From a virus, in the IMG/VR virus record IMGVR_UViG_3300021419_000004, positions 4,460 through 68,459 of that record: a stretch of DNA of 64,000 nucleotides; one strand, given 5' to 3'. The stretch's first letter is position 1, and each line of letters opens with the position of its first letter. Below are positions 34,758 through 52,895 of this stretch, piece after piece. The translations under genes were made by a program, and so were the position numbers. The notes below the pieces were generated by a model. That model saw only the letters and a list, made by a program, of their open reading frames with translations. It ran no database searches and had not been told where the DNA came from.

Positions 34758-35819
34758 ATGTCGTCTCTCGCACTGTCCTGGCTCTCCCGTCAGCATGAGC
34801 TCAACGCACCCTTCCAAGAAGGACCGCAGCGCATTGGACCCGGGGGTATCCCGGACATGAGCGACATGCGCGGGCGCCTCTTCGGCGTCCCAGGCTTCCA
34901 CCGCTGGTCTGACCGCAAGAAGGTGCGCAAGCTGCGCGAAATGGCCGAAGCCTATGGCAACGACCCGCGCATGCGCTTCTTCACGGTCAACTCGGTGCTG
35001 AGGCCGGCGGGGGCCACCGACTTCCGCAACTACCGCCAGGTGGCGGAGACCCTGCTCAAGGCGGTGCAGGACGCCGGAACGCTCGGCATCATGTACACCA
35101 ACGAGCCCAATGAGCAGCTCCAGTCCCCGTGGTGGACACTCAAGGTGCGCACGGGGGACTGCGATGACATGTCTCTCTTGCTCGCTGCAATGGCGCATTC
35201 CGTCCGCCTGCCCTGGCGCTTTGTGCTGGCGGGTACTGCCCGGGGCGGACGGGCCCGATGGGCGGAGGGCGGCCGCATGCCTCGAGGCTTCCGCGCCAGC
35301 CACATCTACCTGGACCTGGGCTGGCCTCCCTTCTCCGAGGGCAAAAAGGATGCTCACGGACGCCCGGTCACCCAGTGGGCGCCGGCGGAGCCAACCCTGC
35401 GCGGTCTGCCCCTCGGGCATGACGTGGTGCTGCACGGCATCCCTGGTCAGGGACAGCGCCTGGATCTGGGCGGCGGGGTCGCCGGACACACGGCCGGGCC
35501 CTCCTGGGGCGGCTTCACGAACGGGGCCTACGGCGACTTCGGCGGCACCATCTACAGCCGCCGCGCCAACTGGGGCGACGCTGCGTTGGCGAGCAACGGA
35601 TCGACCGGTGGATCGACCGGTGGATCCACCGCGGAGGAGGAGGTCTACTACCTCCAGCCGACCAACGGCGCCCTCGCCCAGCTCCAAGACAAGCCCCTGG
35701 TCGGCATCGTCGCCCGGGCTGTCGCGTCCCTGGACGCATCTCTCATCCTCGCGGAGGCCATCGGGGCAGTCATCCAGGCTGTCATCGTGTCCTACGCCCT
35801 GTCCAAGCTCAAGCTGTAA
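34758..35819 (+). CDS. Transglutaminase-like cysteine protease (putative virion maturation enzyme)
   Basis: QSPWWTL...GDCDD (Cys), SHIY (His), WAPAEPT (acidic); first gene of the structural operon. Confidence 0.85.
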   Translation: MSSLALSWLSRQHELNAPFQEGPQRIGPGGIPDMSDMRGRLFGVPGFHRWSDRKKVRKLREMAEAYGNDPRMRFFTVNSVLRPAGATDFRNYRQVAETLLKAVQDAGTLGIMYTNEPNEQLQSPWWTLKVRTGDCDDMSLLLAAMAHSVRLPWRFVLAGTARGGRARWAEGGRMPRGFRASHIYLDLGWPPFSEGKKDAHGRPVTQWAPAEPTLRGLPLGHDVVLHGIPGQGQRLDLGGGVAGHTAGPSWGGFTNGAYGDFGGTIYSRRANWGDAALASNGSTGGSTGGSTAEEEVYYLQPTNGALAQLQDKPLVGIVARAVASLDASLILAEAIGAVIQAVIVSYALSKLKL

Positions 35820-35837
35820 CGCCAAGGAGACGAGACC

Positions 35838-36221
35838 ATGGCTGCAACCGAGATTGAGTCCTTCCTGACCCCTGAGACCTGCGAACGGGCCTACCGCATC
35901 GCGCGTCAGTGCCAGGAGAAGCGTGACTACGAGCGGGCCAGCTACGGCCTGCGCGCCGCCCGGGACCGCAACCCCAAGCTCCTCAAGACCCTGGAGGCGA
36001 TGGCCGAGGCCACCGACAAGGCCGAGGAGAACCAGCGCGGGCGCACCCGTCGCGGCATGTCCACGACCCACGCGGACAAGGCCAAGGCCACCGAGGTGTC
36101 CCTCTGCCGTGAGGCCTACAAGGCCGTGGACAGCAACAACCAGCCCGTCATGGGTCACTTCCAGTTCATCTACTACGGCGCCGCGTGCGTCGCCGGACTC
36201 GTCACAGGCCCCTACGGGTAG
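35838..36221 (+). CDS. Putative virion protein
   Basis: AAGGAG RBS; SYG, RDRNP, ends GPYG. Confidence 0.7.
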   Translation: MAATEIESFLTPETCERAYRIARQCQEKRDYERASYGLRAARDRNPKLLKTLEAMAEATDKAEENQRGRTRRGMSTTHADKAKATEVSLCREAYKAVDSNNQPVMGHFQFIYYGAACVAGLVTGPYG

Positions 36222-36254
36222 GCCACCAGCGGCTGGAGCCGCAAAGGAGATCAC

Positions 36255-36935
36255 ATGCTCGTGCCCATCAACGGTGCCTTCGGCTCCATGGACGCTGCCT
36301 ACGGAGATGCCTACGGAGCGTCCTACGGCGCCAGCAGCTGGCTGGCCGAGCGCCGCCGCAACCTCAAGAAGGCCCGTCAGCGCGTGATCGCCGCCACCAA
36401 GAACCAGGCCGCCCAGGCTCAGTCCCGCGGCTACCTGGTCCCCACCTCCTCCGCCGCCCAGGCCGGTTCCGCCGCCTGGACCGGCCGGACTCGCTTCTTC
36501 CAGAAGCCCGGCTTCGTGGAGCGCTACCAGTCCCTGCCCACCGCCGTGAAGGCAGGCACTGCGGCCATGATCCCCGGCATCGGCCCTTGGCTGGCCGCCG
36601 GCATCCTGGGCAAGAAGGTGGTCGAGGTGGGCACCAGCCGTCGCAAGGGCAGCGTCGGCACCAGCATCCGCAAGGGGCCGGGCGGAGCCACTGTCGGCCG
36701 CGGGCCTCGAGGCACCAGCGCCTACACCACTGCCAACGACCTCTACGCCGCCCAGGATGCCTTCTCCCAGGGCTACCCGGCCGAGGGCGCCGCTACCTCC
36801 TCCGAGACCGCAGTGGCTGAGGTCTCCGCACCGAGCTACGGCCTGATGGCGGTCGGCGCCCTCCTGTTGGCCGGTGCCGGCTACGCCCTCTTCAAGCGCT
36901 TCAAGAAGGGCAAGAAGAGCAAGAGCAAGAAGTAG
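36255..36935 (+). CDS. Tail-anchored virion membrane protein
   Basis: AYGDAYGASYG N-terminus; C-terminal TM plus KRFKKGKKSKSKK. Confidence 0.75.
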   Translation: MLVPINGAFGSMDAAYGDAYGASYGASSWLAERRRNLKKARQRVIAATKNQAAQAQSRGYLVPTSSAAQAGSAAWTGRTRFFQKPGFVERYQSLPTAVKAGTAAMIPGIGPWLAAGILGKKVVEVGTSRRKGSVGTSIRKGPGGATVGRGPRGTSAYTTANDLYAAQDAFSQGYPAEGAATSSETAVAEVSAPSYGLMAVGALLLAGAGYALFKRFKKGKKSKSKK

Positions 36936-36944
36936 GAGGCACCC

Positions 36945-37631
36945 ATGTCCGCCTGGAGCAACAGCAGCAACTGGGGGCACCCAGTCGCGGGAGCTGCAGC
37001 ACCGTCTGTGGCCGCCACACCTGCGTCTTTCGCGGGCTACGGGGACCCCTTCGTGCGCCCGCAGATGGCCGGTCCGCAGGTGGCGGCCTTGGGCAGTGAC
37101 GCCAAGGTCAACCGGCTGCTGTCAACCAAGGCCAGCGCCGAGCTGGCGAGTGGCTACTACAAGGGCGGCGGCGGCTACACCTACCTGTGGGACGCACCCT
37201 CGGCGACCATCACCATCGCAGCCGGGCCCACGGGCGCGGGCTCCCAGCTCTCCCCGGGGCACACCTACTACAACGCCGTGCTGACGGAGCTCTACCGCAT
37301 CGGCGCTCCCAACACCTCCAGCCCCACCGGCAGCGCAGGCAGCTCGGCAGCGGCCGCCGCGGCGGACGCAAGTGGTGCCGGTGGGATCTCTGGCGGCAGC
37401 CGCTTCGCCAACATCGTCTCCGGCCTCAGTCAAGCAGCCACGACCGCCGCGGCGCTGACCTCCCAGGTCGCCGCAGCCAAGGCGGCCCAGGCCGCCACGG
37501 CAGCGCCAGCAGTCGCAGCTCCGGCGCAGATGGCGCCGGCAACGCCCTCGCGCCTGCCCTGGATCCTGGCCGCTGTTGGTGGAACCGTGGTTCTCGGACT
37601 CATCTTCGCCACCCTCCGGAAGCGCCGATGA
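36945..37631 (+). CDS. Tail-anchored virion membrane protein
   Basis: AGYGD; LPWILAAVGG TM plus RKRR. Confidence 0.75.
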   Translation: MSAWSNSSNWGHPVAGAAAPSVAATPASFAGYGDPFVRPQMAGPQVAALGSDAKVNRLLSTKASAELASGYYKGGGGYTYLWDAPSATITIAAGPTGAGSQLSPGHTYYNAVLTELYRIGAPNTSSPTGSAGSSAAAAAADASGAGGISGGSRFANIVSGLSQAATTAAALTSQVAAAKAAQAATAAPAVAAPAQMAPATPSRLPWILAAVGGTVVLGLIFATLRKRR

Positions 37632-38311
37632 GTACCGCTCAGCTGGCCGGAACGGGTGGGCGCTGGGGAGCTGCGTCTCCCTGGGGTGCCTATGGCCGCG
37701 GCGGCGCTGTCCTCAGCACCGTGGGCGCCGGCCTGCAGAACATCGACTGGCAGCAGACCGGAGAGGCCCTGAGCCAGGCCGGCGCTGCCGGCGTCAGCAT
37801 CTACAGCAACATCTCCGCCATCAAGGCTCAGCAGGCCGCCGAGCAGGCCGCAGCCAACCAACTCGCCCTCCAGGCCTCCGCGCCAGCGCCTGTTGTCTCG
37901 ATTCCGACGGGCTCCGGCGTCCTGCCTTGGGTTGTGGCAGGAGTGGCAGGCCTGGGGGCTTTGGTGCTGCTGCTCCGTGGTCGCGGGAAGGGCGGCCGCC
38001 GCAAGAACCCCTATGGCGTCGAGCCGGTCACCATCATCACCGGCCTGGCCACCGGCATCTCCGCCCTCGTGGGCGCCGCCAAGGTCGGGTACGACATCCG
38101 CAGTGGCAAGCGCGCGGAGCGCATGAGCCAGACGATGGCAGCTCACCAGCAGCTGCAGGCAGCTCAGACCGCGGCCTACACCGCAGGGGCCCAACAGGCC
38201 GGCGCCGAGCTCCAGCGGGCTCAGCAGGCGCGCAGCCTCAAGACCTTCGGAGCACTCGCCGTTGTCGGCGTGCTCGTCTACCTGTTCTACAAGAAGCGGA
38301 GTTCCAAGTGA
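37628..38311 (+). CDS. Two-unit membrane protein (TM-RRKNPYG-unit-TM)
   Basis: ATGA overlap; two TM plus basic segments. Confidence 0.75.
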   Translation: MSTAQLAGTGGRWGAASPWGAYGRGGAVLSTVGAGLQNIDWQQTGEALSQAGAAGVSIYSNISAIKAQQAAEQAAANQLALQASAPAPVVSIPTGSGVLPWVVAGVAGLGALVLLLRGRGKGGRRKNPYGVEPVTIITGLATGISALVGAAKVGYDIRSGKRAERMSQTMAAHQQLQAAQTAAYTAGAQQAGAELQRAQQARSLKTFGALAVVGVLVYLFYKKRSSK

Positions 38312-38988
38312 ACCAGCCTCTCCAGTTCTCCCAGGATCCGGGAATGACGCCCGTCCCTCTCCCCCAGGGCCGCATGCAGATGCCGGCAGGGGCCCAGTCC
38401 GGTGGCGGCAAGCTGCCCGCCCTGCGTCCGGTGCCCCAGGGCTACATCCACGGCCGAAGTGCTGAGCTGCCCCTCGACGTGGAGGCGGATCTGGAAGGGG
38501 GGCCTGCCGTGAATGTGAAGCACCTGCTTCTGGGAGCTGGGGCCGGGTACGCCGTGGGCGGCCCTGTTGGCGCCCTGGCTGGCGGCATCGTGGCCCACAT
38601 CCTGGGCAAGCGGTCGTCTCAGCACGCCTACCAGATGCCGGACAACACCGTCGGCTATGGCGCCACCTACGGAGACGCCTGCAGCCGCTGGCAGCGCAAG
38701 TACGAGCGTTACGCCCGCAAGGGTGGCAAGCGCCGAGACAAGTGGGCCGACAAGAACTACTCCAAGGCGGCTGCTGCAGGCTGCGCCTGGACCCAGCCTG
38801 AGGGCGTCCAGCAGATGCTCCAGGGCCAGATGCCGGACGTGACCAGCTATCAGACCCAGGGCTACCAGGAGGCCATGGCTGCGGCTGGTGGGACCGGAGT
38901 CGGTGGCGGCAACGCGGCCTCACCGGTGTTGCTGGTCGCCGGTCTGGGCGCAGCCGCGCTGGGCCTGATCTACATGTTCACTCGCTGA
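38308..38988 (+). CDS. Two-unit membrane protein (glycine-zipper TM, GYGATYGD, C-terminal TM)
   Basis: GTGA overlap. Confidence 0.75.
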   Translation: MNQPLQFSQDPGMTPVPLPQGRMQMPAGAQSGGGKLPALRPVPQGYIHGRSAELPLDVEADLEGGPAVNVKHLLLGAGAGYAVGGPVGALAGGIVAHILGKRSSQHAYQMPDNTVGYGATYGDACSRWQRKYERYARKGGKRRDKWADKNYSKAAAAGCAWTQPEGVQQMLQGQMPDVTSYQTQGYQEAMAAAGGTGVGGGNAASPVLLVAGLGAAALGLIYMFTR

Positions 38989-39035
38989 GCGCTGAGCGCC
39001 AGCACACCGCGCCCCGGGGCGCAAAGGACGAGACC

Positions 39036-39290
39036 ATGAGCAAGAAGTTCGCCAGCAAGGGTCAGATCAAAGAGCAGCTGCAGGACGCCGTGGAGAAGGT
39101 GGCTGAGAAGCTCGAGGCCACCAACATCCAGGCCGACGAGCTCCCTGAGCTCTCCGCCAAGTTCACCATCGCCCTGACTTCGACCATCGAGGCCGCCAGC
39201 GACAAGCGCTTCACCTTCACTGAGCTGATGGATGTCGGTGCCAAGTGGAGGGCCTTTGGTGCTGCCTGGAAGGCCGCCCGCCAGGACTGA
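39036..39290 (+). CDS. Small helical protein
   Basis: AAGGA RBS. Confidence 0.7.
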   Translation: MSKKFASKGQIKEQLQDAVEKVAEKLEATNIQADELPELSAKFTIALTSTIEAASDKRFTFTELMDVGAKWRAFGAAWKAARQD

Positions 39291-39316
39291 GAGCGCGCAA
39301 GCGCTGAGGAGCCCCT

Positions 39317-39742
39317 ATGCCCTGCACCTGCCATCAACGCGCCTCCCACGGCTACCTGGGCTACCAGGGCTACGGGAATGCGCACTACGGCAACGCGGAC
39401 ACCGATACGCCTGAGGCCGAGTCGTCCTCCTGGGAACAGTACGCGCCCCTGGTGACGGCAGTGGTCGAGGGCACCTCTGACCCCCACAAGCAGGCGTTGC
39501 TGTGGGAACAGCGGCTGGTGACGCTGCAGAAGGCAGGCTTCTCCCCCGAGAGCGCCGCCTACCGCAGCGCAGAGGCTCGGTACCAGGCTGCCCTTCGCGC
39601 CGCCGGGATGGAGCTCGAGGAGGAGCAGTCCACGCGCGAGTGGCGGGCCCTCGGCAAGGCTGGCATCGCTACTGGCATTGTCGTCGGTATCGGTGTCCTG
39701 GTGGCGCTGGGCGTGGCCATCGGCCGCGGAGGCAAGAAGTGA
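39317..39742 (+). CDS. Tail-anchored virion membrane protein
   Basis: GYLGYQGYGNAHYGN; C-terminal TM plus RGGKK. Confidence 0.75.
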   Translation: MPCTCHQRASHGYLGYQGYGNAHYGNADTDTPEAESSSWEQYAPLVTAVVEGTSDPHKQALLWEQRLVTLQKAGFSPESAAYRSAEARYQAALRAAGMELEEEQSTREWRALGKAGIATGIVVGIGVLVALGVAIGRGGKK

Positions 39743-40425
39743 GCATCCAGGCTGCCCGCATCCAGCGACAGGCGGAGCTCCTCAAGCAGCTCAAGCCGGC
39801 CGGCACCTTGCGGAAGAACAAGCGAGCCCGCAAGAAGGCCAAGCGGAAGTTCTCCGGCACGGCTGTGGCGCGTACCAACGCCGCAGGCAGCAAGCGTTGG
39901 ATGTGGTGGGCAGCTGCGGGCACAGGCGTCGCTCTCATCGCGGGCAGCCTCTTCAAGCCGGTGCGGGGGCTCCTGCGCGGGTTGGGCATCGGAGGTGTGG
40001 ACCATCCCGAAGCCTGGGCGGTAGACCGTAGTGCAGCCGCCCTGGACGAAGCTGCTCGGGAGACCAGCGACGCTGCGCTGTCGGACAACTACAGCCGTCT
40101 GTCCCAGCTCGTCGCCTCCGGAGGCGTCTGGGGCCAGGATCGCAGCGCGGCGGACATCCTCATCGGGACCGCGGCGATGATCAACTACCAGGCAGCCCCG
40201 GTGGCCTCCAGCCGGCTCCGGCTGTTCATGGCGGACCGAGGGGTGAGCTGGAAAAGCGGCGGCACCGTCGTCACAGATGCTGAGCTCGCTGAGCTGGAGG
40301 ACGTGGTAGGCTGGCGCTCGATGTTGCCGGCCTGGCGCCCCTCCCTGGGACTGGCTGGTGCCGGTGCAAGCCTGGTGCTCGTCGGCATCGTGGGCACCAT
40401 GCTCACGCGGAGGAAGAAGCGATGA
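39739..40425 (+). CDS. Basic N-terminus, two-TM membrane protein
   Basis: RKNKRARKKAKRK; ends TM plus RRKKR. Confidence 0.75.
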   Translation: MSIQAARIQRQAELLKQLKPAGTLRKNKRARKKAKRKFSGTAVARTNAAGSKRWMWWAAAGTGVALIAGSLFKPVRGLLRGLGIGGVDHPEAWAVDRSAAALDEAARETSDAALSDNYSRLSQLVASGGVWGQDRSAADILIGTAAMINYQAAPVASSRLRLFMADRGVSWKSGGTVVTDAELAELEDVVGWRSMLPAWRPSLGLAGAGASLVLVGIVGTMLTRRKKR

Positions 40426-41159
40426 ACGCGATGACCACGACCATTCAGCCGGGCATGCCCCGGGCCAAGGCAACGGCGACTGGCGTCGGCCTCCGCTCTC
40501 TCCCCTGGATCATCGGCGGCGCCATCCTCGCCAAGGCCGGCGGCTTCCAGCCCGCTGCGGGTGCGTTCATGGGCCTGGGCATCGGGGTGTCCCTGGGCCT
40601 GCGGCGGGCAAAGGAGCAGGAGCTCCTGGGCAGCGCTGGGTCTCCGGTCCTGCAGGACGCCGCTGCCAGCGTGGCGACCGCGGGCATGGCCGACGCGGAC
40701 ACCCTCAAGACCGCCTGGAACTACTGGACCAAGTGGGGTGTGCGTGGCGGGCTCGAGAACGTGGCCTATGAGGCCGAGGAAGCTGCGGCCGAGGCTGCAG
40801 GTGCTGCCGGGGGCATCGCCGCAGCTGCGCAGCAAGCCTACAAGGATGAACTGGAGCGCCGAGAGCAGGAGCGCAAGCGCAAGCGCATGGAGCGCATCCT
40901 CAAGATCGGCGGTCTGAGCCTGCTGGGTCTGGTCATCGCCGGTGGGGTCGCTGGCCGGGCGGCGGGCGGGACTCGTCGGCGGAACCCGGCGAAGGACAAG
41001 GGCCCCAGCTGGCTCGCCGTTGGCCTTGTGACTGCCCTGGCAGCTGCGGACACCGTGACGCCCGGGTTCCCCTTCCCGGGCTCCGCCGTGGTACTGGTAC
41101 CAGCGGCTGCCGCAACCTGGCTGGCCAAGCTGAGCGCCATGGGTGTGAAGCTCCGCTGA
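40422..41159 (+). CDS. Multi-TM membrane protein with RRRNP motif
   Basis: LPWIIGG TM; GGTRRRNP. Confidence 0.75.
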   Translation: MNAMTTTIQPGMPRAKATATGVGLRSLPWIIGGAILAKAGGFQPAAGAFMGLGIGVSLGLRRAKEQELLGSAGSPVLQDAAASVATAGMADADTLKTAWNYWTKWGVRGGLENVAYEAEEAAAEAAGAAGGIAAAAQQAYKDELERREQERKRKRMERILKIGGLSLLGLVIAGGVAGRAAGGTRRRNPAKDKGPSWLAVGLVTALAAADTVTPGFPFPGSAVVLVPAAAATWLAKLSAMGVKLR

Positions 41160-41168: not shown

Positions 41169-41888
41169 ATGAGACTGCTGAACCAGGGCATCCGCAACAT
41201 CGCCGCCCGGCTGGGGATTGACCAGGCCTGGGAGGACTCCGAGGAGGCCGCCCAGGACGCCTACGAGTCCCACCACTGGGGCCACAAGCATGACGGCACC
41301 ACCTTCACCGACGACCATCCGGACGCGCCGGCGGTCTCGACGGAGATGGGCAAGCTGCTGGCGCTGGGGGTCATTCCCATCGGCAAGCGAGGTACTCCCG
41401 ACCGACGGGCCGCCAAGGCCATGCACCACTGGGAGAAGCGCCTCGAGCTCAACCCGGAGAAGGTGCCGGGCGAGGATGAGGGCATCGCCGAGCTGTGGTT
41501 CAACGGCCGGAAGGACCCGCGCTGCATCGTCAGCTTCACGCCTGCATCGGAGCTCCTGCACCTGGCGCTCCCTCCCGATGAGCAGAAGCGCATGCAGGCC
41601 TACTTCCGTAGCGCGCACCTCTACCCCCTGGGCGAGCTGGCCGGTATCCGCGGTGGTCGAGCTGCTGAGGGTGATGAGCGTCAGGTTCCGGTGGCGCTCC
41701 TGGGTGAGCTCGCCTGGGTGATGTACCTCACCGACAAGAAGGGCGATGGCGTCAGTGAGTACGTGCACGGCATGGGCACGGAAGGCCGCTTGACCCCGAT
41801 GCGCCCCTACCTGTGTGTCGCCGAGGATGGGTCCCTGTGGCTCGCCGGTGGCAACTACGAGGTCAAGTCCGTCGGGATCAGCGGATGA
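41169..41888 (+). CDS. Soluble protein of the structural module, unknown function
   Basis: YESHHWGH, LGELAWVMY...EYVH...PYL...LAGGNYEV..GI. Confidence 0.75.
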   Translation: MRLLNQGIRNIAARLGIDQAWEDSEEAAQDAYESHHWGHKHDGTTFTDDHPDAPAVSTEMGKLLALGVIPIGKRGTPDRRAAKAMHHWEKRLELNPEKVPGEDEGIAELWFNGRKDPRCIVSFTPASELLHLALPPDEQKRMQAYFRSAHLYPLGELAGIRGGRAAEGDERQVPVALLGELAWVMYLTDKKGDGVSEYVHGMGTEGRLTPMRPYLCVAEDGSLWLAGGNYEVKSVGISG

Positions 41889-43386: not shown

Positions 43387-43600
43387 GTGGATGCAGTCCT
43401 CCGGACCGTCCTGTGGCCCGTGGAGGGACCATAGCACAGGTGCAGGAAGTGTGAAAGGTGCGAGAGGTGCGCAATAACCGGAGTATCTCAGGTGAATCGA
43501 GCTTCGTCCCTTGGACTGCTCTACCGCCTCCGCTACGGTCCAAGTGTCTCGAGCCCACCGCGGGTCTCGGAACCTTCATTCCCACCCCGAGGAGGCCCCC

Positions 43601-45339: not shown

Positions 45340-46002
45340 ATGAGCAAGCCCTTCGTCCCGGCCTGGCTGCAGGGCCAGTACGGCCAGCAGGTCCAGTTCC
45401 CCAAGGACTACCGCGCCTCCCTCTCCCCTCCCACCCTGGGTCAGATGGCCCAGGCTGCCGCCAACGCACAAGCAGCGCAGCAGGCTCAGGCAGCTGCGCA
45501 GGGAGCACCCATGCATCCCCACATGACCGGAGCTCCCACCTGGCAGCGCGAGCAGGTCTACTACCCGACCCCGCTCCTGCCGGAAGCCCCCAACCTGGCC
45601 AAGACGCCGCGCGACATCGTGCTGCGCTTCACCAACCAGGCCGTGGGTCAGGAGATCTTCCTGCCGCTGCAGGTGGACATCCCTGGCGTCATCTACGCCG
45701 TCTCCGGAGGTGCCTACACCACCGACGACTCCAACCTGCCCGTGGGCCGTGATCCCCTGGACACCTTCCTGGTCCGCATCGAGCGCAACAACGGCGACCG
45801 CTTGCAGACCCAGGCGGGGTTGGGCTCGGCTGTCGTGGGCCCCGCCCGCTTCCCCCGTCTGCTCGGCGGCCCTGGCTATGTGTTCCAGCGTGGCGCTTCG
45901 CTGCGGGTGGCGGTGACGCCCCTGATCGCCAACCTGGACATCACCATCTGCTGCTGGATCATGGAGATCCGCGGTCCCACCAACATCTCGGCCGTGGGCT
46001 GA
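45340..46002 (+). CDS. Putative second capsid/penton protein (jelly-roll-like C-terminal domain)
   Basis: Disordered N-terminus plus about 8 predicted beta strands. Confidence 0.5.
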   Translation: MSKPFVPAWLQGQYGQQVQFPKDYRASLSPPTLGQMAQAAANAQAAQQAQAAAQGAPMHPHMTGAPTWQREQVYYPTPLLPEAPNLAKTPRDIVLRFTNQAVGQEIFLPLQVDIPGVIYAVSGGAYTTDDSNLPVGRDPLDTFLVRIERNNGDRLQTQAGLGSAVVGPARFPRLLGGPGYVFQRGASLRVAVTPLIANLDITICCWIMEIRGPTNISAVG

Positions 46003-47734: not shown

Positions 47735-47743
47735 GAGCTCTCC

Positions 47744-48556
47744 GTGAGCCAGTACGTCATCCGCATTCGTGAGCGTCAGGGCAAGGGCAAGATCCGTGCC
47801 GAGCTCCCTGGCACCTTCACTCAGGCCAAGGCAGTGAAGACCGGTCAGTCCATCGCTGACGACTACTCGTTGCCCGCGGGGTGCAAGGTGGTCGTGGAGA
47901 AGAAGGGAGGAGCCAGGCGCAAGAAGGCCGCAAAGAAGCCCCGTAAGCCGGCACGCAAGGCGGCCCCGAAGCGTGCATCCAAGCGCAAGAGCAACCCTCA
48001 CCGCCCGACCCTGACGATGCTCCTCAACAAGGGTGAAACGCTCAGCTGGGCCAAGAAGCGCAAGCCGGGCTCAACGGTGACCATGGGCCAGGGGCACAAG
48101 GGCTTCGCCGTCATCGACTGGACCGTGCCTGGGGGGAAGGAGCACCACTACAAGACCCCCAGCGGCGCCATCAAGCGCTTTGAGGAGCTGGTGGGCACCC
48201 AGGGCGCCTACAAGGCCATTGCTGCGTGGGAGCAGAAGCACGGCAAGCTGGCCGCAGCGGGTCGCATGGGCGACCTCGAGAAGGCCAGCAAGCAGGCGAG
48301 CCGGCGCAAGAACGCGGGCAAGCGCAGCAAGAAGTGGATCCAGAAGGCCGACGCGCAGATGGAGAGAGCAGGCACCGAAGGGGCCTTCACCGCCCAGGCC
48401 AAGCGCGCCGGCTACGACGATCCCTTGAAGTACGCCCGGCACGTCAAGAAGACCTATGAGGCCGCCCGCAAGAAGGGCAAGACCGCCGGCAGCAAGGGTG
48501 TCCCGACCTTGCGCACCTACCGCCGGGCGATGTTCGCGCTGAACGCGCAGAAGTAG
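47744..48556 (+). CDS. Histone-like basic virion core protein
   Basis: KKAAKKPRKPARKAAPK, KRKSNP, KKWIQKA...GAFTAQAKRAG. Confidence 0.7.
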   Translation: MSQYVIRIRERQGKGKIRAELPGTFTQAKAVKTGQSIADDYSLPAGCKVVVEKKGGARRKKAAKKPRKPARKAAPKRASKRKSNPHRPTLTMLLNKGETLSWAKKRKPGSTVTMGQGHKGFAVIDWTVPGGKEHHYKTPSGAIKRFEELVGTQGAYKAIAAWEQKHGKLAAAGRMGDLEKASKQASRRKNAGKRSKKWIQKADAQMERAGTEGAFTAQAKRAGYDDPLKYARHVKKTYEAARKKGKTAGSKGVPTLRTYRRAMFALNAQK

Positions 48557-48594: not shown

Positions 48595-49197
48595 ATGGCA
48601 GGCAGCAACAACTTCCAGGGCCCCGTCATCCTGACGGAGCTCGACAGCTACTTCGCCTGGGGGCGTCAAGGCCCGGGGGTGTCGAGCCACGTCCGCGTCT
48701 ACCGAGTGGACTACGACCCGAATGGAGTGCTCGCAGCTCCTCGGGGTAGCTGGGCTCTCCGGGACGATGCGGGGCAGGTGGCCGCCTACCTGAACCAGGA
48801 TGGTGCCTCGACCTGGGCCAAGCTGGTCCCTAACGGAGGAGGCACCGCCGGCCTGGTGATGCCCCTGGAGAAGGAACTGCTGCCTTTGGGTGGGGATGAC
48901 ATCACGGACTCCGTGAGGGTCAATGCAGCGGGCACCATAGTCGAGGTGCTGTTCTACTGCAGCGTGGCCTACACCACGGCCGGCTCTTTCACCATCGACG
49001 TGCAACTGAACAGCGTCAGCGTGCTCAGCGCTGTGGTGGACGGCACGACTATTCCGGCACTCCCCGGGGTGCTCACGGCGCCGCTGGCGGCATCTACGCC
49101 CCTGGCCGCGGGGGATGTCCTCTCAGTGGTGCTTTCCAGTGACAACGCAGACCTGGCTGGGGCCGGGCTCACGGCTGTTTTTCGGACGGAGGCCTGA
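48595..49197 (+). CDS. Virion spike/decoration protein
   Basis: DPNGVLAAPRGS...W module plus beta domain ending LAAGDVLSV...AGLTA. Confidence 0.6.
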   Translation: MAGSNNFQGPVILTELDSYFAWGRQGPGVSSHVRVYRVDYDPNGVLAAPRGSWALRDDAGQVAAYLNQDGASTWAKLVPNGGGTAGLVMPLEKELLPLGGDDITDSVRVNAAGTIVEVLFYCSVAYTTAGSFTIDVQLNSVSVLSAVVDGTTIPALPGVLTAPLAASTPLAAGDVLSVVLSSDNADLAGAGLTAVFRTEA

Positions 49198-49198
49198 G

Positions 49199-50737
49199 AT
49201 GGGCGACTACAAGAGCAGCCGTGATGCAGGTGCCAAGAGCCCGGCGTCCCCTACCCGGATCGGAGCTTCGACCGACAACCAGGTGCGCGGCCAGTTCAAC
49301 ACCGGCGCCACAGGCATCATCACCGGCGGCCGTGGCTCCGTAGATGCGGATCCGGCCAAGTTCCAGCTCGCCGCTGGCGAGGGCTGGGTGCGCGTGAACA
49401 CCACCAACCCGGACGACCCTGAGCAGATCCGGCTGGTGTGGGATGCAGTGACAGGCATTGACCCGCTCAACAAGGCAGGGCCCGGCGCGGCCATCAGCTA
49501 CGTGTGGGCCAGCCTACCCACGGTCTATTCAGGCGAGGTGGTCACCGCTGAGATCACCCAGACACAGCCCAGCGACTACCCAGACCCGGGAGACCCTACG
49601 CCTTCGGAGTTCCGGGAAAAGGTCTACCTCGGTTTCGTCGTCTTTGAGTCCTTCCTGGGCATCGTATTGGCCTTCGTCGTCAACGTCCGGGCAGCCCTGA
49701 ACGTTGCTGCCCAGCTCGCCGACCTCAGCGCTTCCCTGGGTTCCCTCCGGGTGCAGGATGGCGAGGTCCGGGCCATCGGCGCACTCCAGCTCGAGCAGGA
49801 CGCCGGCGTCTTCTACGCGGAGGGCGCCAACTGGGTAACCTCGGAGCTTGTGCCTTCGGTGGTTGATGCTGCAGCCATCTCTCCCCTGCTTGGCGGGACC
49901 GGCTACCGCAGTGGCGCCAACGATGGGCGCTTCTCGGTGACTCCGGGCCCGCCCACGACCTCGCTGGATCCCACGCTCTATGACGACGGGAGCGGCACTC
50001 CTCGGACGGTCCCGGCAGGCCAGGTGACCATCCAGCGCATCTACTACAATGTGACCAGCCCTGGGCACCTGTTCATGTATGGGCAGGAACTCTACGAGAG
50101 CCTGGCGGAGGCGCACGCCAACATCCTCACCGGTCCCTTGGAGGACATCCCTCAGTTGCGGGCGGAGGATTGGGTGTTGGTGGCTCAGGTTGCGGTGGTG
50201 CAGTCGGCTACGGACCTCACCGACCCCGAGCAGGCCCTGGTCTACAACGCGTTGCCCTCAGGGAAGCTCAGCCTCGAGGCCGATCCGCCTGCGATGCCGG
50301 CCCCCAGCGGCATCGTGGGCACGGCCACCAACTTTCCCTCTGGGGGTGGAGCGATTGAGTTCGCCAACTTCGGTGCGGTCACCGGCCCTGGTGCAGGCGC
50401 CTTCACGCTACCGGTGGACGCCTACATCGTCGCTGTGGTCTACACGTTCAGCCACACCAATCCCATCAACATCGGAGCCGGTGAGTCCATCACCTTGACC
50501 GCGGGCCTCTTCGTGCCGGGCGCGGCGTTGACCACTGCCAACTACACGCCTGAAGCAACCACTGAACAGATCTGGGACAGCAGCTTCTCCGGCACGCACC
50601 CGATCTCCGTGGTGCAGCCGACGGATCCCATCTTGGTGAACGCGGGGACCCCCATCGGTATCCGGACCGTGGAAAGCGGTTCAGTGACCCCTGCCAATGC
50701 TGACCTATTGGCCACGCTGTGGTATAGACCAGCATGA
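49199..50737 (+). CDS. Fibre/receptor-binding-like protein
   Basis: TGIITGG...FQLAAGEG, LDPTLYDDGSG...TIQRIY; G/T/P-rich beta protein. Confidence 0.6.
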   Translation: MGDYKSSRDAGAKSPASPTRIGASTDNQVRGQFNTGATGIITGGRGSVDADPAKFQLAAGEGWVRVNTTNPDDPEQIRLVWDAVTGIDPLNKAGPGAAISYVWASLPTVYSGEVVTAEITQTQPSDYPDPGDPTPSEFREKVYLGFVVFESFLGIVLAFVVNVRAALNVAAQLADLSASLGSLRVQDGEVRAIGALQLEQDAGVFYAEGANWVTSELVPSVVDAAAISPLLGGTGYRSGANDGRFSVTPGPPTTSLDPTLYDDGSGTPRTVPAGQVTIQRIYYNVTSPGHLFMYGQELYESLAEAHANILTGPLEDIPQLRAEDWVLVAQVAVVQSATDLTDPEQALVYNALPSGKLSLEADPPAMPAPSGIVGTATNFPSGGGAIEFANFGAVTGPGAGAFTLPVDAYIVAVVYTFSHTNPINIGAGESITLTAGLFVPGAALTTANYTPEATTEQIWDSSFSGTHPISVVQPTDPILVNAGTPIGIRTVESGSVTPANADLLATLWYRPA

Positions 50738-50769
50738 GGCGAGTCGCGCCGTAGCGCGAAGGAGATTCC

Positions 50770-51930
50770 ATGGCCAACGCCAAGACTGTTCTTGCAGCCG
50801 TCCGTCGTTCTGTCAAGCTCCGAAGGACCGAAGAGGGCGAGCGCAATGCCGTGGCCATGGTGCTGTCCCGCTACGGCTACACCAAGCCTCCCAGGGTCCA
50901 GCAGGTCGCCGACCCGGAGCGGAAGACCCGCCGGGTCTACGTGTGGCAGGGCGCCCTGGGTGACGACGACTTGGTGCTGATCGCCGGCCCCTCCTACGAG
51001 GGCAAGGTGGTTGCCGGCAGCACGGTGCGCCTGGACAGCGACAGCGACGATGGCATCACGGCCTGGATCTCCGGGGCCGACTACACCCAGAAGGGCATGC
51101 AGTCGGCCATGAAGCGCGCTACAGAGCGCGGCGCCGTGGACCCCTTGACCGAGGGCCCCAAGAAGCGGGCCGCAGCACGCGCCAGGCGGGCGCAGACGCG
51201 GGCGGCGAGGCCCGCAGCTCCCGTGAAGCCTGCGGTGCCCCAGGAGACCGCTGAGGCCATGCACGCTGCGAAGGCACGCAGGGCTGCCGCCAAGGCCCCT
51301 GCGACGATGGAGGACCGCCTCAAGGGGGCGGTTTGGGCCGTGCGCTCGGAACCCAACGAGATCCGCTGGCCCATCGAGCTGGTGGCGCTCATGCAGCAGG
51401 TGGGTGAGATGCCCCATGCTGTAGAGGCCATGGATCAGTACGTCCAGCGTGTGCTGAGTGGGGAAGCTCGACGGCCCTCGCTGGTGCAGATGCGCTCGCT
51501 GGGGCGCTGGGGCAAGCAGCTCCAACAGGCCCAGGACCGGTCCATCTGGGACAAGCCGGCTCCTGGGATGGAGCTGGAGACGGCGCAGGCCCGGCTGGCT
51601 GAAGACGCCGACCTCCGGCTGCAGGCCCGCCTGGACAAGGTGGTGCGGAACCTCAAGGCGTCCCAGGACATCCGCTGGGCCATCGAGGCTGTGGACCTGA
51701 TGGGCCAGATGGGCACCGAGCCCGACTCCGCCGTCTTCGCTCTCAACGACTTCGTGATGGGTGTGCAGGACGGCGACGTTCCAATGCCCACGGCAGCTCA
51801 GCGGGCGAAGCTGGGGCGCTGGGGCGCTGAGATGACGCCTCCAGCCCCCGTCCAGTCCAGCAGCGACAACGACGCGGCCATGATGGCCAAGTTCCAGGCG
51901 CTGCTCAAGTCCGCGCTGGCTGAGGCTTGA
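50770..51930 (+). CDS. Hypothetical protein with internal tandem domain duplication
   Basis: Two copies of IRW.IE.V.LM.Q.G...LGRWG. Confidence 0.75.
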   Translation: MANAKTVLAAVRRSVKLRRTEEGERNAVAMVLSRYGYTKPPRVQQVADPERKTRRVYVWQGALGDDDLVLIAGPSYEGKVVAGSTVRLDSDSDDGITAWISGADYTQKGMQSAMKRATERGAVDPLTEGPKKRAAARARRAQTRAARPAAPVKPAVPQETAEAMHAAKARRAAAKAPATMEDRLKGAVWAVRSEPNEIRWPIELVALMQQVGEMPHAVEAMDQYVQRVLSGEARRPSLVQMRSLGRWGKQLQQAQDRSIWDKPAPGMELETAQARLAEDADLRLQARLDKVVRNLKASQDIRWAIEAVDLMGQMGTEPDSAVFALNDFVMGVQDGDVPMPTAAQRAKLGRWGAEMTPPAPVQSSSDNDAAMMAKFQALLKSALAEA

Positions 51931-52310
51931 GCATGGACGACAAGGAAGTCCGAGACCAGCTGTTCATCGCCATCCGCGAGGGCAACGAGGCCAACAAGGC
52001 CATGGCCCAGGCCATGCAGGCTGTCGCCACCGCCGTGAGCTCCATTGGGGAGACCCAGCGAGAGCACACACGCAGCCTGGACGAGCACTCGCTGACGGTG
52101 GACCGGCTGGTCACTACCATCCAGGCGCGCCAGGCTATCTGGAAGGAGATGATCGACACGGTGAAGGACTACAAGGTGCTCAGCGGCATTGTCATCGGGA
52201 TCATCCTGACTGTGGCTGTGCTGGGCCCTCTCGTCATGGCATCCTTGCCTTCGACTCTTTCCACCTTGGGGGTTGAGGACGCCGTGCCGGCGCCTGCGGA
52301 GATTCCATGA
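51927..52310 (+). CDS. Coiled-coil plus TM protein (holin/XhlA-like architecture)
   Basis: Heptads then LSGIVIGIILTVAVLG. Confidence 0.55.
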   Translation: MSMDDKEVRDQLFIAIREGNEANKAMAQAMQAVATAVSSIGETQREHTRSLDEHSLTVDRLVTTIQARQAIWKEMIDTVKDYKVLSGIVIGIILTVAVLGPLVMASLPSTLSTLGVEDAVPAPAEIP

Positions 52311-52501
52311 GCCAGCTTGACCCGACTCCCATTCAGGTGATGCAGAACGCCGTTGCGCGCGCTGCCGAGAAGGAGCTCAAGGCCCGAAAGACCGCCTCGG
52401 CAGTGCTCGCCCAGGTGCTACCGGATGAGGACAGGCAAGCGCTGGAGGAGAGGCTCAAGGAAGGCTCCCCTCTCAAGCTCAAGCCCATCACCCGCCACTG
52501 A
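52307..52501 (+). CDS. Small hypothetical protein
   Basis: ATGA overlap. Confidence 0.6.
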   Translation: MSQLDPTPIQVMQNAVARAAEKELKARKTASAVLAQVLPDEDRQALEERLKEGSPLKLKPITRH

Positions 52502-52511
52502 GGAGTCTCCC

Positions 52512-52895
52512 GTGGGCAACCCTGCAGTCGATGCCACCTGTCCCATCCATTTCTACCAGGGAGACCCATCCTCTTGGGCGCTGGGGCTCCACTACGGAGA
52601 CGCCGGGATCGCGGTGGGTGCCTCTCAGATCACCCAGTACGACTTCTCCCCGGAGGAGCCCGTTGCGTCTCTCCTGACGGACCTGGGGCCCATCGCCATG
52701 CAGGACTACTCGCTGCAACTGGGGGGCGCTGCAGCCGGCGCGTACCTCCACAGCCAGATCGCTTCCAGGCCCGGCGCCTGGTTCGACTGGTATAGGGCCA
52801 TGGTGGACCCTCAGCTACGCACAGCTGCGCAGCAGGTGGAGATCCAGGCTGGGGTGAGGGACGCCCTACTCCATGGGGTCCGTGGGTGTGTCTGA
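52512..52895 (+). CDS. Hypothetical protein
   Basis: GAGGAG RBS, GTG start. Confidence 0.6.
   Translation: MGNPAVDATCPIHFYQGDPSSWALGLHYGDAGIAVGASQITQYDFSPEEPVASLLTDLGPIAMQDYSLQLGGAAAGAYLHSQIASRPGAWFDWYRAMVDPQLRTAAQQVEIQAGVRDALLHGVRGCV

What the first reader, a model, noticed from the sequence alone, without database searches (positions are those of the whole stretch)
34758..52895. Morphogenesis module of a probable undescribed large tailless, internal-membrane virus
Seen: about 27 co-oriented genes with no terminase, portal, HK97 capsid, tape measure or tail tube motifs. They encode a Cys enzyme, at least 7 small Gly/Ala-rich membrane proteins with TM plus basic tails, a membrane-bound PG hydrolase, two very basic DNA-binding proteins and a run of beta-rich capsid, vertex and spike candidates. 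Established: such inventories typify jelly-roll lipid-containing viruses (tecti-, cortico-, sphaerolipo-, portogloboviruses), whose known prokaryotic genomes are much smaller than 64 kb. Inference: a new lineage infecting Myxococcota-like bacteria.
Basis: partly seen in the sequence, partly recalled or inferred. Interest (0 to 1): 0.92.

Follow-up and report, generated by a model that had tools for sequence, protein, structure and literature searches.

The report
Capsid module, large tailless membrane virus
This gene block most likely builds the particle of an uncultured, roughly 70-90 kb bacterial virus that uses two small jelly-roll shell proteins and many membrane-anchored proteins instead of a phage head and tail, a design so far described only in viruses of 44 kb or less.

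Summary
Window 34758-52895 carries 27 co-oriented genes and one small opposite-strand gene. Pfam recognises only two of them: a transglutaminase-like Cys enzyme and an M15 peptidase.

The window is 64 kb of a 68,459-bp IMG/VR virus record. I found four relatives of 41-93 kb, two with terminal repeats. All five genomes encode one copy each of the 44551 and 45340 proteins. AlphaFold2 predicts both as single eight-stranded jelly rolls. Their best PDB matches are shell proteins of membrane-containing SPV1 and HHIV-2, but at Z about 8, which is background level.

No terminase, portal or HK97 capsid was detected in any searched part of the five genomes. No P-loop ATPase lies in the module.

The new link is to Salisaeta phage SSIP-1, a 44-kb tailless, membrane-containing phage. 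The tail-anchored transglutaminase-like protein is specifically related to its virion protein gp34 (36.8 bits; PDB transglutaminase-likes score 17.5 or less).

A protamine-like membrane protein sits before the first jelly-roll gene in all five genomes.

Best reading (0.6): the virion module of a large SSIP-1/sphaerolipovirus-like lineage without a recognisable packaging motor. No particle has been seen.

This scan has reported similar "large tailless jelly-roll virus" modules on other DNA before.

The parts
34723..34751 (+). sigma-70-like promoter match just upstream of the first gene of the module
   Evidence: TTGACC-17-TATCGT, 9 of 12. Three such sites in 19.5 kb against 1.1 expected. A consensus match only.
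34758..35819 (+). g01: tail-anchored transglutaminase-like Cys enzyme (353 aa), a relative of SSIP-1 virion protein gp34
   Evidence: Pfam Transglut_core E 2.4e-5. Cys135 (GDCDDM), His182 and Glu211-Pro-Thr are invariant in 4 of 4 genomes, and all four have a C-terminal TM plus basic tail. The profile hits SSIP-1 gp34 at 4.6e-12, 36.8 bits, against 17.5 bits or less in the PDB.
35838..36221 (+). g02: small conserved protein (127 aa), function unknown
   Evidence: GC3 0.91. blastp homologs in G1, G3 and G4. No Pfam family.
36255..41159 (+). g03-g10: eight genes. Seven encode Gly/Ala-rich proteins ending in a TM helix plus basic tail (36255, 36945, 37628, 38308, 39317, 39739, 40422); 39036-39290 has no TM. 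Candidate virion membrane proteins.
   Evidence: Hydropathy and composition table, translations, overlapping start/stop codons. The same architecture is seen in G1. No Pfam family above cut-off.
41169..41888 (+). g11: conserved soluble core protein (239 aa), function unknown
   Evidence: Homologs in 4 of 4 other genomes. Alignment A5 has 31 invariant columns. No Pfam, PHROG, PDB-sequence or GenBank-phage match.
41885..42532 (+). g12: M15 (LAS-type) peptidoglycan peptidase with a hydrophobic N-terminus
   Evidence: Pfam Peptidase_M15_3 E 2.2e-5, 25 bits. Homolog in G4. G1 has a similar TM-plus-peptidase protein, seen by eye.
42529..43136 (+). g13 and g14: two small proteins (83 and 118 aa), function unknown
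   Evidence: GC3 frames. No Pfam family.
43147..43437 (-). small opposite-strand gene (96 aa or less) inside the module, possibly regulatory
   Evidence: GC3 0.86 in the minus frame. Promoter-like site at 43455-43428. Translation. No Pfam family.
43601..44437 (+). g15: protamine-like N-terminal half (R/K-rich, repeated basic-run-NP motifs) fused to hydrophobic helices. Candidate membrane-anchored genome-condensing protein.
   Evidence: pI 12.0, 27% R+K, TM 139-157. Homologs in G1 and G3. A protein of the same architecture lies directly upstream of the first jelly-roll gene in G2, G3 and G4 and in G1.
44551..45237 (+). g16: first single-jelly-roll protein (228 aa), candidate major capsid protein
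   Evidence: Highest GC3 (0.93) of genes over 100 aa. 105 unnamed homologs. AF2 pLDDT 80.9. Best structural match is SPV1 capsid protein 6oj0_T, Z 8.1, rmsd 3.5, 139 aligned. Present in 5 of 5 genomes.
45340..46002 (+). g17: second single-jelly-roll protein (220 aa) with an N-terminal helix, candidate second capsid protein
   Evidence: 160 representative clusters. AF2 pLDDT 87.4. Matches: HHIV-2 6h82_b Z 8.4, SPV1 Z 7.8, PRD1 P3 second barrel Z 7.6. Present in 5 of 5 genomes and adjacent to g16 in G0, G1, G3 and contig L001.
46014..47734 (+). g18, g19 and g20: acidic soluble proteins (160, 247 and 124 aa), candidate minor capsid or vertex proteins
   Evidence: GC3 0.92 for g18. g19 has homologs in G2, G3 and G4. 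Folds were not obtained; the Atlas model of g19 has pLDDT 0.47.
47744..48556 (+). g21: very basic soluble protein (270 aa)
   Evidence: pI 10.8, 25% R+K. No Pfam family.
48595..52895 (+). g22-g27: acidic 200-aa and 512-aa proteins (spike candidates), a 386-aa helical basic protein and three small proteins
   Evidence: Frames. No Pfam family above cut-off. No PHROG for 48595, 49115 or 50770. The roles are inferred.
53644..54576 (-). tyrosine integrase directly after the module (context: a temperate life style)
   Evidence: Pfam Phage_integrase E 4.1e-29.

Best explanation
Window 34758-52895 is the virion-building (late) module of a temperate bacterial virus of about 70-90 kb. The virus belongs to a widespread uncultured lineage.

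Proposed working:
- The shell is built from two different single-jelly-roll proteins (44551 and 45340), as in SSIP-1, sphaerolipovirus-type and portoglobovirus-type viruses.
- The shell sits on a lipid membrane filled with virus-encoded proteins that are held by a C-terminal helix.
- A membrane-anchored transglutaminase-like Cys enzyme, a homolog of SSIP-1 virion protein gp34, is part of the particle. It acts either as a maturation protease or as a wall-cutting entry enzyme.
- A membrane-anchored M15 peptidase cuts peptidoglycan at entry or exit.
- No P-loop motor is encoded in the module. I therefore propose that the genome is condensed on the membrane by the protamine-like protein 43601, the basic C-terminal tails and the basic protein 47744, and is enclosed during assembly rather than pumped in. 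SPV1 is a known virus that also lacks a packaging ATPase.

Shown here: the gene content, the two jelly-roll predictions, their conservation and linkage in five genomes, the gp34 relation, and the lack of detectable tailed-phage hallmark genes.

Inferred: the membrane, the icosahedral shell, the absence of a tail, and the packaging mode.
For: 1. Virus identity. The contig is an IMG/VR virus record of 68,459 bp, estimated 88% complete. Relative G001 (92,736 bp) is classed as having terminal repeats. G352:C152 (92,743 bp) has a 141-bp terminal repeat.

2. Both folded proteins are eight-stranded jelly rolls (pLDDT 80.9 and 87.4). Their top PDB matches are capsid proteins of membrane-containing viruses: 6oj0_T Z 8.1, rmsd 3.5, 139 aligned; 6h82_b Z 8.4, rmsd 6.0, 114 aligned; 6oj0_T Z 7.8; PRD1 P3 second barrel Z 7.6, rmsd 3.1, 110 aligned.

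3. Profiles of both proteins find one copy each in 5 of 5 genomes. They are adjacent in three of these genomes and on contig L001. Meanwhile the replication genes differ: G3 and G4 share no polymerase or helicase with this contig by tblastn.

4. Gene order is kept between this contig and G001: Cys enzyme, then tail-anchored proteins, then g11, then the protamine-like protein, then jelly roll 1, then jelly roll 2.

5. The Cys-enzyme profile hits SSIP-1 gp34, annotated 'structural protein', at 4.6e-12 and 36.8 bits over residues 39-132 including the DCD motif. gp34 also ends in a TM helix. PDB transglutaminase-likes score 17.5 bits or less.

6. SSIP-1 is a tailless membrane-containing phage with two capsid protein types, about 100 nm across, T=49, 44 kbp (passages seen in PMC6356626, PMC6260650 and PMC4958249).

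7. Tailed-phage hallmarks were not detected. Terminase_6N, Terminase_6C, TerL_ATPase, Phage_portal and Phage_capsid each gave 0 of 3 genomes at E<=1, while the controls rang. hmmscan of 49 proteins here and 40 large ORFs of G1, G3 and G4 gave none.

8. No Walker A motif in a plausible context lies in the module.

9. SPV1 also lacks a packaging ATPase (passage in PMC8812541).
Against: - The fold matches are at the level the tool calls background (typical best Z 7-8). Jelly-roll cement proteins of tailed phages score as well for the first protein: KHP40 7dou_4 Z 8.0, Pam1 7eel_H Z 6.8, GP4 8h89_J Z 6.5.
- The two jelly-roll families show no sequence relation to each other (hhalign probability 0.1), to any PDB sequence, or to SSIP-1 structural proteins.
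- SSIP-1 has a Walker A protein, gp40, among its structural proteins. No homolog exists here, so the packaging mode may differ, or a motor may have been missed.
- About 12% of this genome is not in the contig.
- Only the larger ORFs of the relatives were scanned. HK97-fold capsid proteins are often missed by Pfam, and I could fold only two proteins.
- My Walker A pattern is not exhaustive; it misses SNF2-type motifs, for example.
- No particle, lipid or proteome data exist.
Confidence: 0.6

Rival explanations
1. A very divergent tailed phage. The two jelly-roll proteins would be cement or decoration proteins on an HK97-fold head, and the capsid, portal and terminase genes would be too diverged for profile HMMs.
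For: Jelly-roll cement proteins of tailed phages match the 44551 model as well as SPV1 does: 7dou_4 Z 8.0, 7eel_H Z 6.8, 8h89_J Z 6.5. Several large proteins remain without any family, for example 28161 (627 aa), 49199 (512 aa) and 61888 (668 aa). The contig is estimated 88% complete. Replication genes (family A polymerase with a UDG domain, helicases, integrase) are phage-like.
Against: Five hallmark families gave 0 of 3 genomes at E<=1, including a 100%-complete genome. None appeared among 49 proteins of this contig or 40 large ORFs of G1, G3 and G4. The only canonical P-loops in this contig lie in helicases and an AAA_24 protein. In the terminally repeated G352:C152 the only credible one is a VapE-like primase-helicase. 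The 731-aa protein resembles DUF3560/LPD proteins rather than a portal (score 0.88, a lead only). The module shares a specific virion protein with tailless SSIP-1.
Confidence: 0.1
2. A membrane-vesicle-like or pleomorphic element without an icosahedral shell. The many membrane proteins and the protamine-like protein would wrap the DNA in a lipid envelope, and the jelly-roll proteins would serve as surface spikes or adhesins rather than as a capsid lattice.
For: There are 8 tail-anchored proteins and a membrane-anchored basic protein, and no packaging ATPase. Jelly rolls are also common in receptor-binding proteins: PRD1 P5 1yq5 and the phage 7-7-1 tail fibre 9rkv_M, Z 7.8.
Against: Two different jelly-roll proteins are the best-conserved, tightly linked pair in 5 of 5 genomes, and the first has the strongest codon bias, as expected of a lattice protein. 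The closest described relative by the gp34 link, SSIP-1, is icosahedral with T=49. Genomes of 68-93 kb are large for known pleomorphic viruses (this last point is from recall).
Confidence: 0.15
3. The architecture is as in the best explanation, but DNA is pumped in by a conventional ATPase. That ATPase would lie in the missing 12% of the contig or be too diverged to recognise, so the 'motor-less' part of the reading would be wrong.
For: SSIP-1 has a structural protein with a Walker A motif (gp40, GEKGSGKS). Helvetiaviruses and most double-jelly-roll viruses have packaging ATPases (PMC8812541 passage). This contig is incomplete. My motif scan is not exhaustive.
Against: No SSIP-1 gp40 homolog was found in any of the five genomes at E<=0.01. 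G352:C152 has terminal repeats and shows only a VapE-type P-loop. A protamine-like membrane protein is conserved next to the capsid genes in 5 of 5 genomes.
Confidence: 0.15

Closest known systems
[quoted passage not shown]
   Same: Its virion protein gp34 is a specific relative of the tail-anchored transglutaminase-like protein at 34758 (36.8 bits; both end in a TM helix). In both genomes this gene opens a long co-oriented structural block. That block holds several small proteins with C-terminal TM helices and a run of acidic 210-256-aa proteins. SSIP-1 is tailless, membrane-containing and described as having two capsid protein types (PMC6356626 passage).
   Different: No sequence relation was detected between the jelly-roll proteins here and any SSIP-1 protein. 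SSIP-1 is 43,788 bp, against 68-93 kb here. It has a Walker A structural protein, gp40, that is absent here. It shows no protamine-like membrane protein in my table. The original SSIP-1 paper (PMC3344969) is not held, so which gp are its capsid proteins is unknown to me.
Helvetiavirae / sphaerolipovirus-type viruses (HHIV-2, HCIV-1, SH1, Thermus phage P23-77)
   Same: Two different single-jelly-roll capsid proteins encoded side by side, with an internal membrane. HHIV-2 chain 6h82_b is the top structural match of the 45340 model (Z 8.4). HCIV-1 and P23-77 VP17 also appear in the lists (Z 5.5-6.6).
   Different: Those genomes are about 30 kb or less (HHIV-2 30 kbp in the PMC6260650 table). They have a packaging ATPase (PMC8812541 passage); none was found here. 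No sequence similarity was detected, and the structural scores are at background level.
Portogloboviridae (Sulfolobus polyhedral virus 1)
   Same: Single-jelly-roll capsid protein. 6oj0_T is the top match of the 44551 model (Z 8.1, rmsd 3.5, 139 of 178 aligned) and second for 45340 (Z 7.8). SPV1 has no packaging ATPase (PMC8812541 passage).
   Different: SPV1 has an archaeal host and a small genome (about 20 kb, from recall). No sequence relation was detected, and no Cys-enzyme link is known to me.
Tectiviridae / Corticoviridae (PRD1, PM2): double-jelly-roll, internal-membrane phages
   Same: The overall inventory is similar: membrane proteins, virion-associated wall enzymes, jelly-roll shell. 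The second barrel of PRD1 P3 aligns with the 45340 model (Z 7.6, rmsd 3.1, 110 aligned).
   Different: The capsid proteins here are single jelly rolls of 220-228 aa, not a fused double jelly roll. Prokaryotic double-jelly-roll viruses have genomes under 20 kbp (PMC8812541 passage) and a packaging ATPase.

Membership tests
Caudoviricetes (tailed phages) | large terminase subunit | tested here: not met
   Terminase_6N, Terminase_6C and TerL_ATPase each gave 0 of 3 genomes at E<=1 in six-frame searches, while the controls rang. None appeared in hmmscan of 49 proteins here and 40 ORFs of relatives. No unassigned canonical P-loop was found in this contig. This is a sequence-level test only.
Caudoviricetes (tailed phages) | portal protein | tested here: not met
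   Phage_portal gave 0 of 3 genomes at E<=1. No portal family appeared in any hmmscan. Only one portal family was searched in six frames.
Caudoviricetes (tailed phages) | HK97-fold major capsid protein | tested here: inconclusive
   Phage_capsid gave 0 of 3 genomes and no capsid family appeared in hmmscans. HK97-fold proteins are often beyond profile HMMs, and only 2 proteins could be folded.
Helvetiavirae (sphaerolipovirus-type) | two single-jelly-roll capsid proteins encoded together | tested here: met
   AF2 models of 44551 and 45340 are single jelly rolls. The genes are adjacent here and both occur in 5 of 5 genomes. That they form the shell is inferred.
Helvetiavirae (sphaerolipovirus-type) | vertical barrels forming pseudo-hexameric homo/heterodimer capsomers | not testable with these tools
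   This needs an assembly model or cryo-EM.
Helvetiavirae (sphaerolipovirus-type) | FtsK/HerA (A32-like) packaging ATPase next to the capsid genes | tested here: not met
   No Walker A motif in a plausible context was found in the module of any of the five genomes. No ATPase family appeared in Pfam scans of all 27 module proteins.
Helvetiavirae (sphaerolipovirus-type) | recognisable similarity to VP16/VP17 or VP4/VP7 | tested here: inconclusive
   6h82_b Z 8.4 and 6.6; 6h9c Z 6.0-6.5; 3zmn_A Z 5.5. All are within the background range stated by the tool. There were no sequence hits.
Portogloboviridae | SPV1-like single-jelly-roll capsid protein | tested here: inconclusive
   6oj0_T Z 8.1 (rmsd 3.5, 139 aligned) and Z 7.8. 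It is top or second in both lists but at background level.
Portogloboviridae | no packaging ATPase | tested here: met
   None was detected. The SPV1 property is taken from a PMC8812541 passage.
Portogloboviridae | small circular genome of a crenarchaeal host | tested here: not met
   Genomes are 68-93 kb. Bacterial-type sigma-70 factor. Contigs are binned with Myxococcota MAGs.
SSIP-1-like phages | gp34-type tail-anchored transglutaminase-like virion protein | tested here: met
   Profile A4 against gp34: 4.6e-12, 36.8 bits, with a C-terminal TM in both. PDB relatives score 17.5 bits or less.
SSIP-1-like phages | homologous capsid proteins | tested here: inconclusive
   hmmsearch and hhalign of A1 and A3 against SSIP-1 proteins gave nothing. 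SSIP-1 proteins could only be used as single sequences and could not be folded here.
SSIP-1-like phages | gp40-type Walker A structural protein | tested here: not met
   No blastp hit to gp40 at E<=0.01 from any six-frame ORF of the five genomes.
Tectiviridae/Corticoviridae and other double-jelly-roll phages | [quoted passage not shown] | tested here: not met
   Both models contain one barrel each. The proteins are 228 and 220 aa.

The most novel reading that the evidence does not exclude
These genomes represent a high-rank, undescribed lineage of large (about 70-93 kb) temperate bacterial viruses, perhaps mainly of Myxococcota. They would build a jelly-roll shell over a protein-rich membrane and enclose their DNA without any packaging motor. 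The genome would instead be condensed on membrane-anchored protamine-like proteins. That would extend the SPV1-type assembly principle to bacteria and to genomes several times larger. It would also link SSIP-1, sphaerolipoviruses and portogloboviruses through a shared virion Cys enzyme and single-jelly-roll capsid proteins.
Probability: 0.3. Interest if true: 0.85.

Novelty: new variant of a known kind. Interest (0 to 1): 0.7.

Why it matters
Tailless, membrane-containing phages are known from few isolates. According to the passages I read, the prokaryotic double-jelly-roll viruses stay under 20 kbp, HHIV-2 has 30 kbp and SSIP-1 has 44 kbp.

If this reading is right, that design would scale to 68-93 kb, with its own polymerase, sigma factor, integrase and anti-restriction-type giant proteins.

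It would also give SSIP-1, an orphan since 2012, its first relatives, through a conserved virion enzyme.

The apparent lack of a packaging ATPase, together with a conserved membrane-anchored protamine-like protein, makes an open question testable: how do large jelly-roll viruses enclose DNA, by pumping or by co-assembly?

The two capsid-candidate families are sizeable: 105 clusters at 90% identity and 160 at 50%. Neither has a Pfam or PHROG model, so such viruses are invisible to marker-based virus classification.

Tried and rejected
- Complex prediction of the 44551 and 45340 proteins, with alignments A1 and A3: verdict 'no answer' (score 0.01, mark 0.32). This is neither for nor against binding.
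- The look-up of sequencing runs: no RNA holder is listed, so nothing can be said on expression. Two DNA holders are listed. Both are seawater metagenomes, and one may be the source.
- ESM Atlas on 46607: poor model, no usable hit.
- ESM Atlas on the 731-aa protein: DUF3560/LPD-like at 0.88, a lead only.
- tblastn against GenBank phages: no match for the 44551 protein, the 731-aa protein or a g11 homolog.
- Profile searches of A1, A3 and A5 against PDB sequences: nothing meaningful.
- hhalign A1 against A3: no relation.
The rest of the genome shows a similar excess (36 against 27.7 +/- 5.0). As a general enrichment it is weak, although tandem YG runs at the N-termini of several tail-anchored proteins recur in G001.
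- G2's 'GMITSGKS' in the protein upstream of the capsid gene: rejected as an ATPase, because the protein is a basic/TM/acidic-repeat protein like 43601.
- Five literature searches found no paper describing 60-90-kb bacterial viruses with single-jelly-roll capsid genes. This covers only the held library, and supplementary files were not consulted.
- No tRNA in the window.
- No terminal repeat on this contig.

Full report
WHAT THE WINDOW IS. The window is bases 4460-68459 of a single 68,459-bp contig. The contig is an IMG/VR virus record classed 'linear' and estimated 88% complete. It has about 67% G+C, no terminal repeats and no tRNA. High G+C makes plain ORF lists useless (412 ORFs), so I called genes by third-position G+C and by codon-position asymmetry.

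The left 27 kb, plus 4.4 kb outside the window, holds a replication and early block:
- a family A polymerase fused to a UDG domain, with a Hint match;
- SF1 and SF2 helicases;
- an AAA_24 ATPase and a sigma-70 factor.

The + strand from about 28 kb to 52.9 kb is a long co-oriented block. A tyrosine integrase follows on the other strand.

THE OBSERVATION. Between 34758 and 52895 there are 27 + strand genes, many with overlapping stop and start codons. One small - strand gene (43147-43437) has its own promoter-like site.

All 27 proteins were scanned against Pfam. Only Transglut_core (34758) and Peptidase_M15_3 (41885) pass their cut-offs. PHROGs on ten of them gave a single unknown-function hit.

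Eight proteins end in a hydrophobic helix followed by a short basic tail. Seven of those eight (all but the 34758 protein, 24%) have 27-36% Gly+Ala. Two proteins are extremely basic.

RELATIVES.
- The 44551 protein has 105 unnamed homologs, none with a Pfam domain, on contigs of up to 110 kb.
- A profile of the 45340 protein finds 160 representative clusters.
- IMG/VR holds two relatives: G001, 92,736 bp, classed as terminally repeated and 100% complete, and G002, 41,099 bp.
- A sample of 401 Myxococcota genomes gave two further virus-sized contigs in MAG bins. G287:C16 is 83,222 bp. G352:C152 is 92,743 bp with a 141-bp terminal repeat.
- Samples of 401 Gemmatimonadota and 401 Acidobacteriota genomes gave only the seed genomes.
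- The five genomes share no nucleotide similarity, and two of them have different replication genes.
- Even so, local HMM searches find exactly one strong match to each of the two protein families in 5 of 5 genomes.
- blastp also shows conservation of the Cys enzyme (3 of 4 other genomes), g02 (3 of 4), g11 (4 of 4), the protamine-like protein (2 of 4 by sequence; the same architecture in all) and g19.
- Gene order is the same in this contig and in G001.

This is the signature of a conserved virion module combined with exchangeable replication modules.

FOLDS. AlphaFold2 with family alignments gives the following.
- 44551: pLDDT 80.9, pTM 0.73, a beta sandwich with a Gly-rich disordered loop.
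- 45340: pLDDT 87.4, pTM 0.73, an N-terminal helix followed by an eight-stranded barrel.

An exhaustive structural comparison puts the SPV1 capsid protein first for 44551 (6oj0_T, Z 8.1, rmsd 3.5, 139 aligned). For 45340, an HHIV-2 chain is first (6h82_b, Z 8.4) and SPV1 second (Z 7.8). The second barrel of PRD1 P3 aligns at Z 7.6.

These scores are no higher than the tool's stated background. Jelly-roll cement proteins of tailed phages (7dou_4, Z 8.0) and cellular jelly rolls score similarly. The folds show 'single jelly roll', not 'capsid'. The capsid role rests on context: highest codon bias, strongest conservation, tight linkage, and the absence of any other capsid candidate.

ABSENCE OF TAILED-PHAGE HALLMARKS. 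Six-frame searches with Terminase_6N, Terminase_6C, TerL_ATPase, Phage_portal and Phage_capsid each found 0 of 3 genomes at E<=1, while the control genomes rang. hmmscan of 49 proteins of this contig, 20 large ORFs of G001, 10 of G287:C16 and 10 of G352:C152 found many other families:
- polymerases, helicases, methylases and Mom;
- VapE, RelA/SpoT and a sigma factor;
- an ice-binding-like beta-helix.

It found no terminase, portal, capsid or tail family.

Canonical Walker A motifs in this contig lie only in helicases and the AAA_24 protein. In the terminally repeated G352:C152 the only credible one is VapE.

The large proteins at 59768-63894 look like DUF3560/LPD 'polyvalent' proteins (a lead only).

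Caveats: about 12% of this genome is missing, small ORFs of the relatives were not scanned, and fold-level detection was limited to two proteins.

THE SSIP-1 LINK. Earlier notes of this scan on other genomes named Salisaeta phage SSIP-1. I fetched its record (43,788 bp, circular).

A profile of the four Cys-enzyme sequences has Cys135, His182 and Glu211 invariant, and all four sequences end in a TM helix plus basic tail. This profile hits SSIP-1 gp34, annotated 'structural protein', at 4.6e-12 (36.8 bits, in a search of 34 proteins). The alignment runs over 94 residues and reaches well upstream of the catalytic Cys. gp34 too ends in a TM helix. The same profile scores 17.5 bits or less against every PDB sequence, including transglutaminase-like proteases. 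The relation is therefore closer than shared superfamily membership.

The SSIP-1 structural block also has several proteins with C-terminal TM helices and a run of acidic 210-256-aa proteins. However, I detect no sequence relation between those proteins and the two jelly-roll families.

According to passages I read, SSIP-1 has PRD1-type architecture with two capsid protein types (PMC6356626). It is about 100 nm across, T=49, 44 kbp, 'single jelly roll?' (PMC6260650). It is grouped with the vertical single-barrel viruses (PMC4958249). The original paper is not held.

SSIP-1 gp40 carries a Walker A motif. No homolog exists in the five genomes.

MECHANISM PROPOSED.
- The module opens with a promoter-like site and the tail-anchored Cys enzyme.
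- Next comes a series of tail-anchored Gly/Ala-rich proteins, which I take to be the protein complement of a virion membrane.
- Then follow the conserved g11, a membrane-anchored M15 peptidase (entry or lysis), and the protamine-like membrane protein.
- After these come the two jelly-roll shell proteins and several acidic soluble proteins (candidate penton, vertex and spike proteins), a second basic protein and a 512-aa spike candidate.
- No motor is found, and a basic, membrane-anchored protein is conserved next to the capsid genes in 5 of 5 genomes. I therefore propose condensation of the genome on the membrane and enclosure during assembly. SPV1 likewise lacks a packaging ATPase (PMC8812541 passage). 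This step is inferred.
- The role of the Cys enzyme is open: maturation protease or wall peptidase. That it is a virion component is inferred from SSIP-1 gp34.

COMPARISON AND NOVELTY. The module works like the virion modules of SSIP-1 and of sphaerolipovirus- and portoglobovirus-type viruses. It fails membership of the double-jelly-roll phages, because its barrels are single. It fails membership of the Helvetiavirae as defined, because it has no packaging ATPase and no demonstrable relation of its capsid proteins. It fails membership of the Portogloboviridae on host and genome. It shares one specific protein with SSIP-1.

Passages I read give under 20 kbp for prokaryotic double-jelly-roll viruses, 30 kbp for HHIV-2 and 44 kbp for SSIP-1. 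The genomes here are 68-93 kb.

Five literature searches found no description of such viruses. Supplements were not consulted.

This scan has already reported similar 'large tailless jelly-roll virus' modules on other DNA. By shared words, none of them resembles the 44551 protein.

I rate this a new variant of a known kind, interest 0.7, with confidence 0.6 in the reading. The main risk is that fold-level searches of complete genomes reveal a hidden HK97 capsid or a motor.

Noticed in passing
L014:3-3653 (- strand; contig bases before the window): A 1,217-aa ORF, open at the contig end, joins a UDG-superfamily domain and a family A DNA polymerase, with a weak Hint (intein-like) match between them. 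Homologs occur in G001 and G002. G352:C152 has a 1,090-aa ORF with a weak, below-cut-off Intein_splicing match (27.3 bits, cut-off 35.8).
   Followed up: partly
window 43601-44437; also G001 85093-86118, G2 36613-38400, G287:C16 26327-28000, G352:C152 41199-42758: The protamine-like membrane proteins carry repeated 'basic run followed by NP' motifs in all five genomes. G287:C16 adds a long acidic DDYG repeat, and a conserved basic C-terminal segment occurs in G2, G3 and G4. These may be a cleavage or DNA-binding repeat.
   Followed up: partly
window 36255-39742 and G001 88929-92442: N-terminal regions of several tail-anchored proteins carry tandem YG motifs, and the same is seen in G001. Overall YG enrichment is weak: 28 against 19.5 +/- 4, with a similar excess elsewhere in the genome.
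   Followed up: partly
window 43147-43437 (-): A small helical protein is encoded against the direction of the module, between the M15 region and the protamine-like gene. It has a promoter-like site with a TG extension at 43455-43428. It may be a late-gene regulator.
   Followed up: no
window 59768-63894 (-): Two adjacent large proteins (731 and 668 aa) have no Pfam family. The first resembles DUF3560/LPD 'polyvalent protein' domains in the ESM Atlas (score 0.88) and has a homolog in G001. Relatives carry giant methylase/SNF2/Mom proteins right after the virion module. These are probably anti-restriction proteins.
   Followed up: partly
window 15999-17270 (-); G001 1377-2693 (-): A virus-encoded sigma-70 family factor (regions 3 and 4). 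G001 has a sigma region-2 match inside its virion block.
   Followed up: no
G001 4294-5451 (-) (L006): An Ice_binding-like (beta-helix) protein is encoded directly after the transglutaminase-like gene (E 1.1e-22). It is a possible spike or fibre with no counterpart detected in this window.
   Followed up: no
window 20734-21705 (-) and 7106-8884 (-): By eye, the first ORF has a DPPY motif typical of N6-adenine methyltransferases. The second has a C-terminal Cys cluster like Cas4/AddB-type nucleases and is conserved in G001 and G002. Pfam found nothing for the second; the first was not scanned.
   Followed up: no
window 28161-34285 (+): Upstream and co-oriented with the module lie a 627-aa Gln/Ala-rich coiled-coil protein, two Pro/Ala-rich proteins and a Cys-rich basic protein. 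All lack Pfam or PHROG families, and no homologs were found in the four relatives. They may be scaffold or size-determining proteins.
   Followed up: no
G001 61036-62169 (-) (L009): A RelA_SpoT-domain protein (E 2.1e-10) is encoded in the related virus genome.
   Followed up: no
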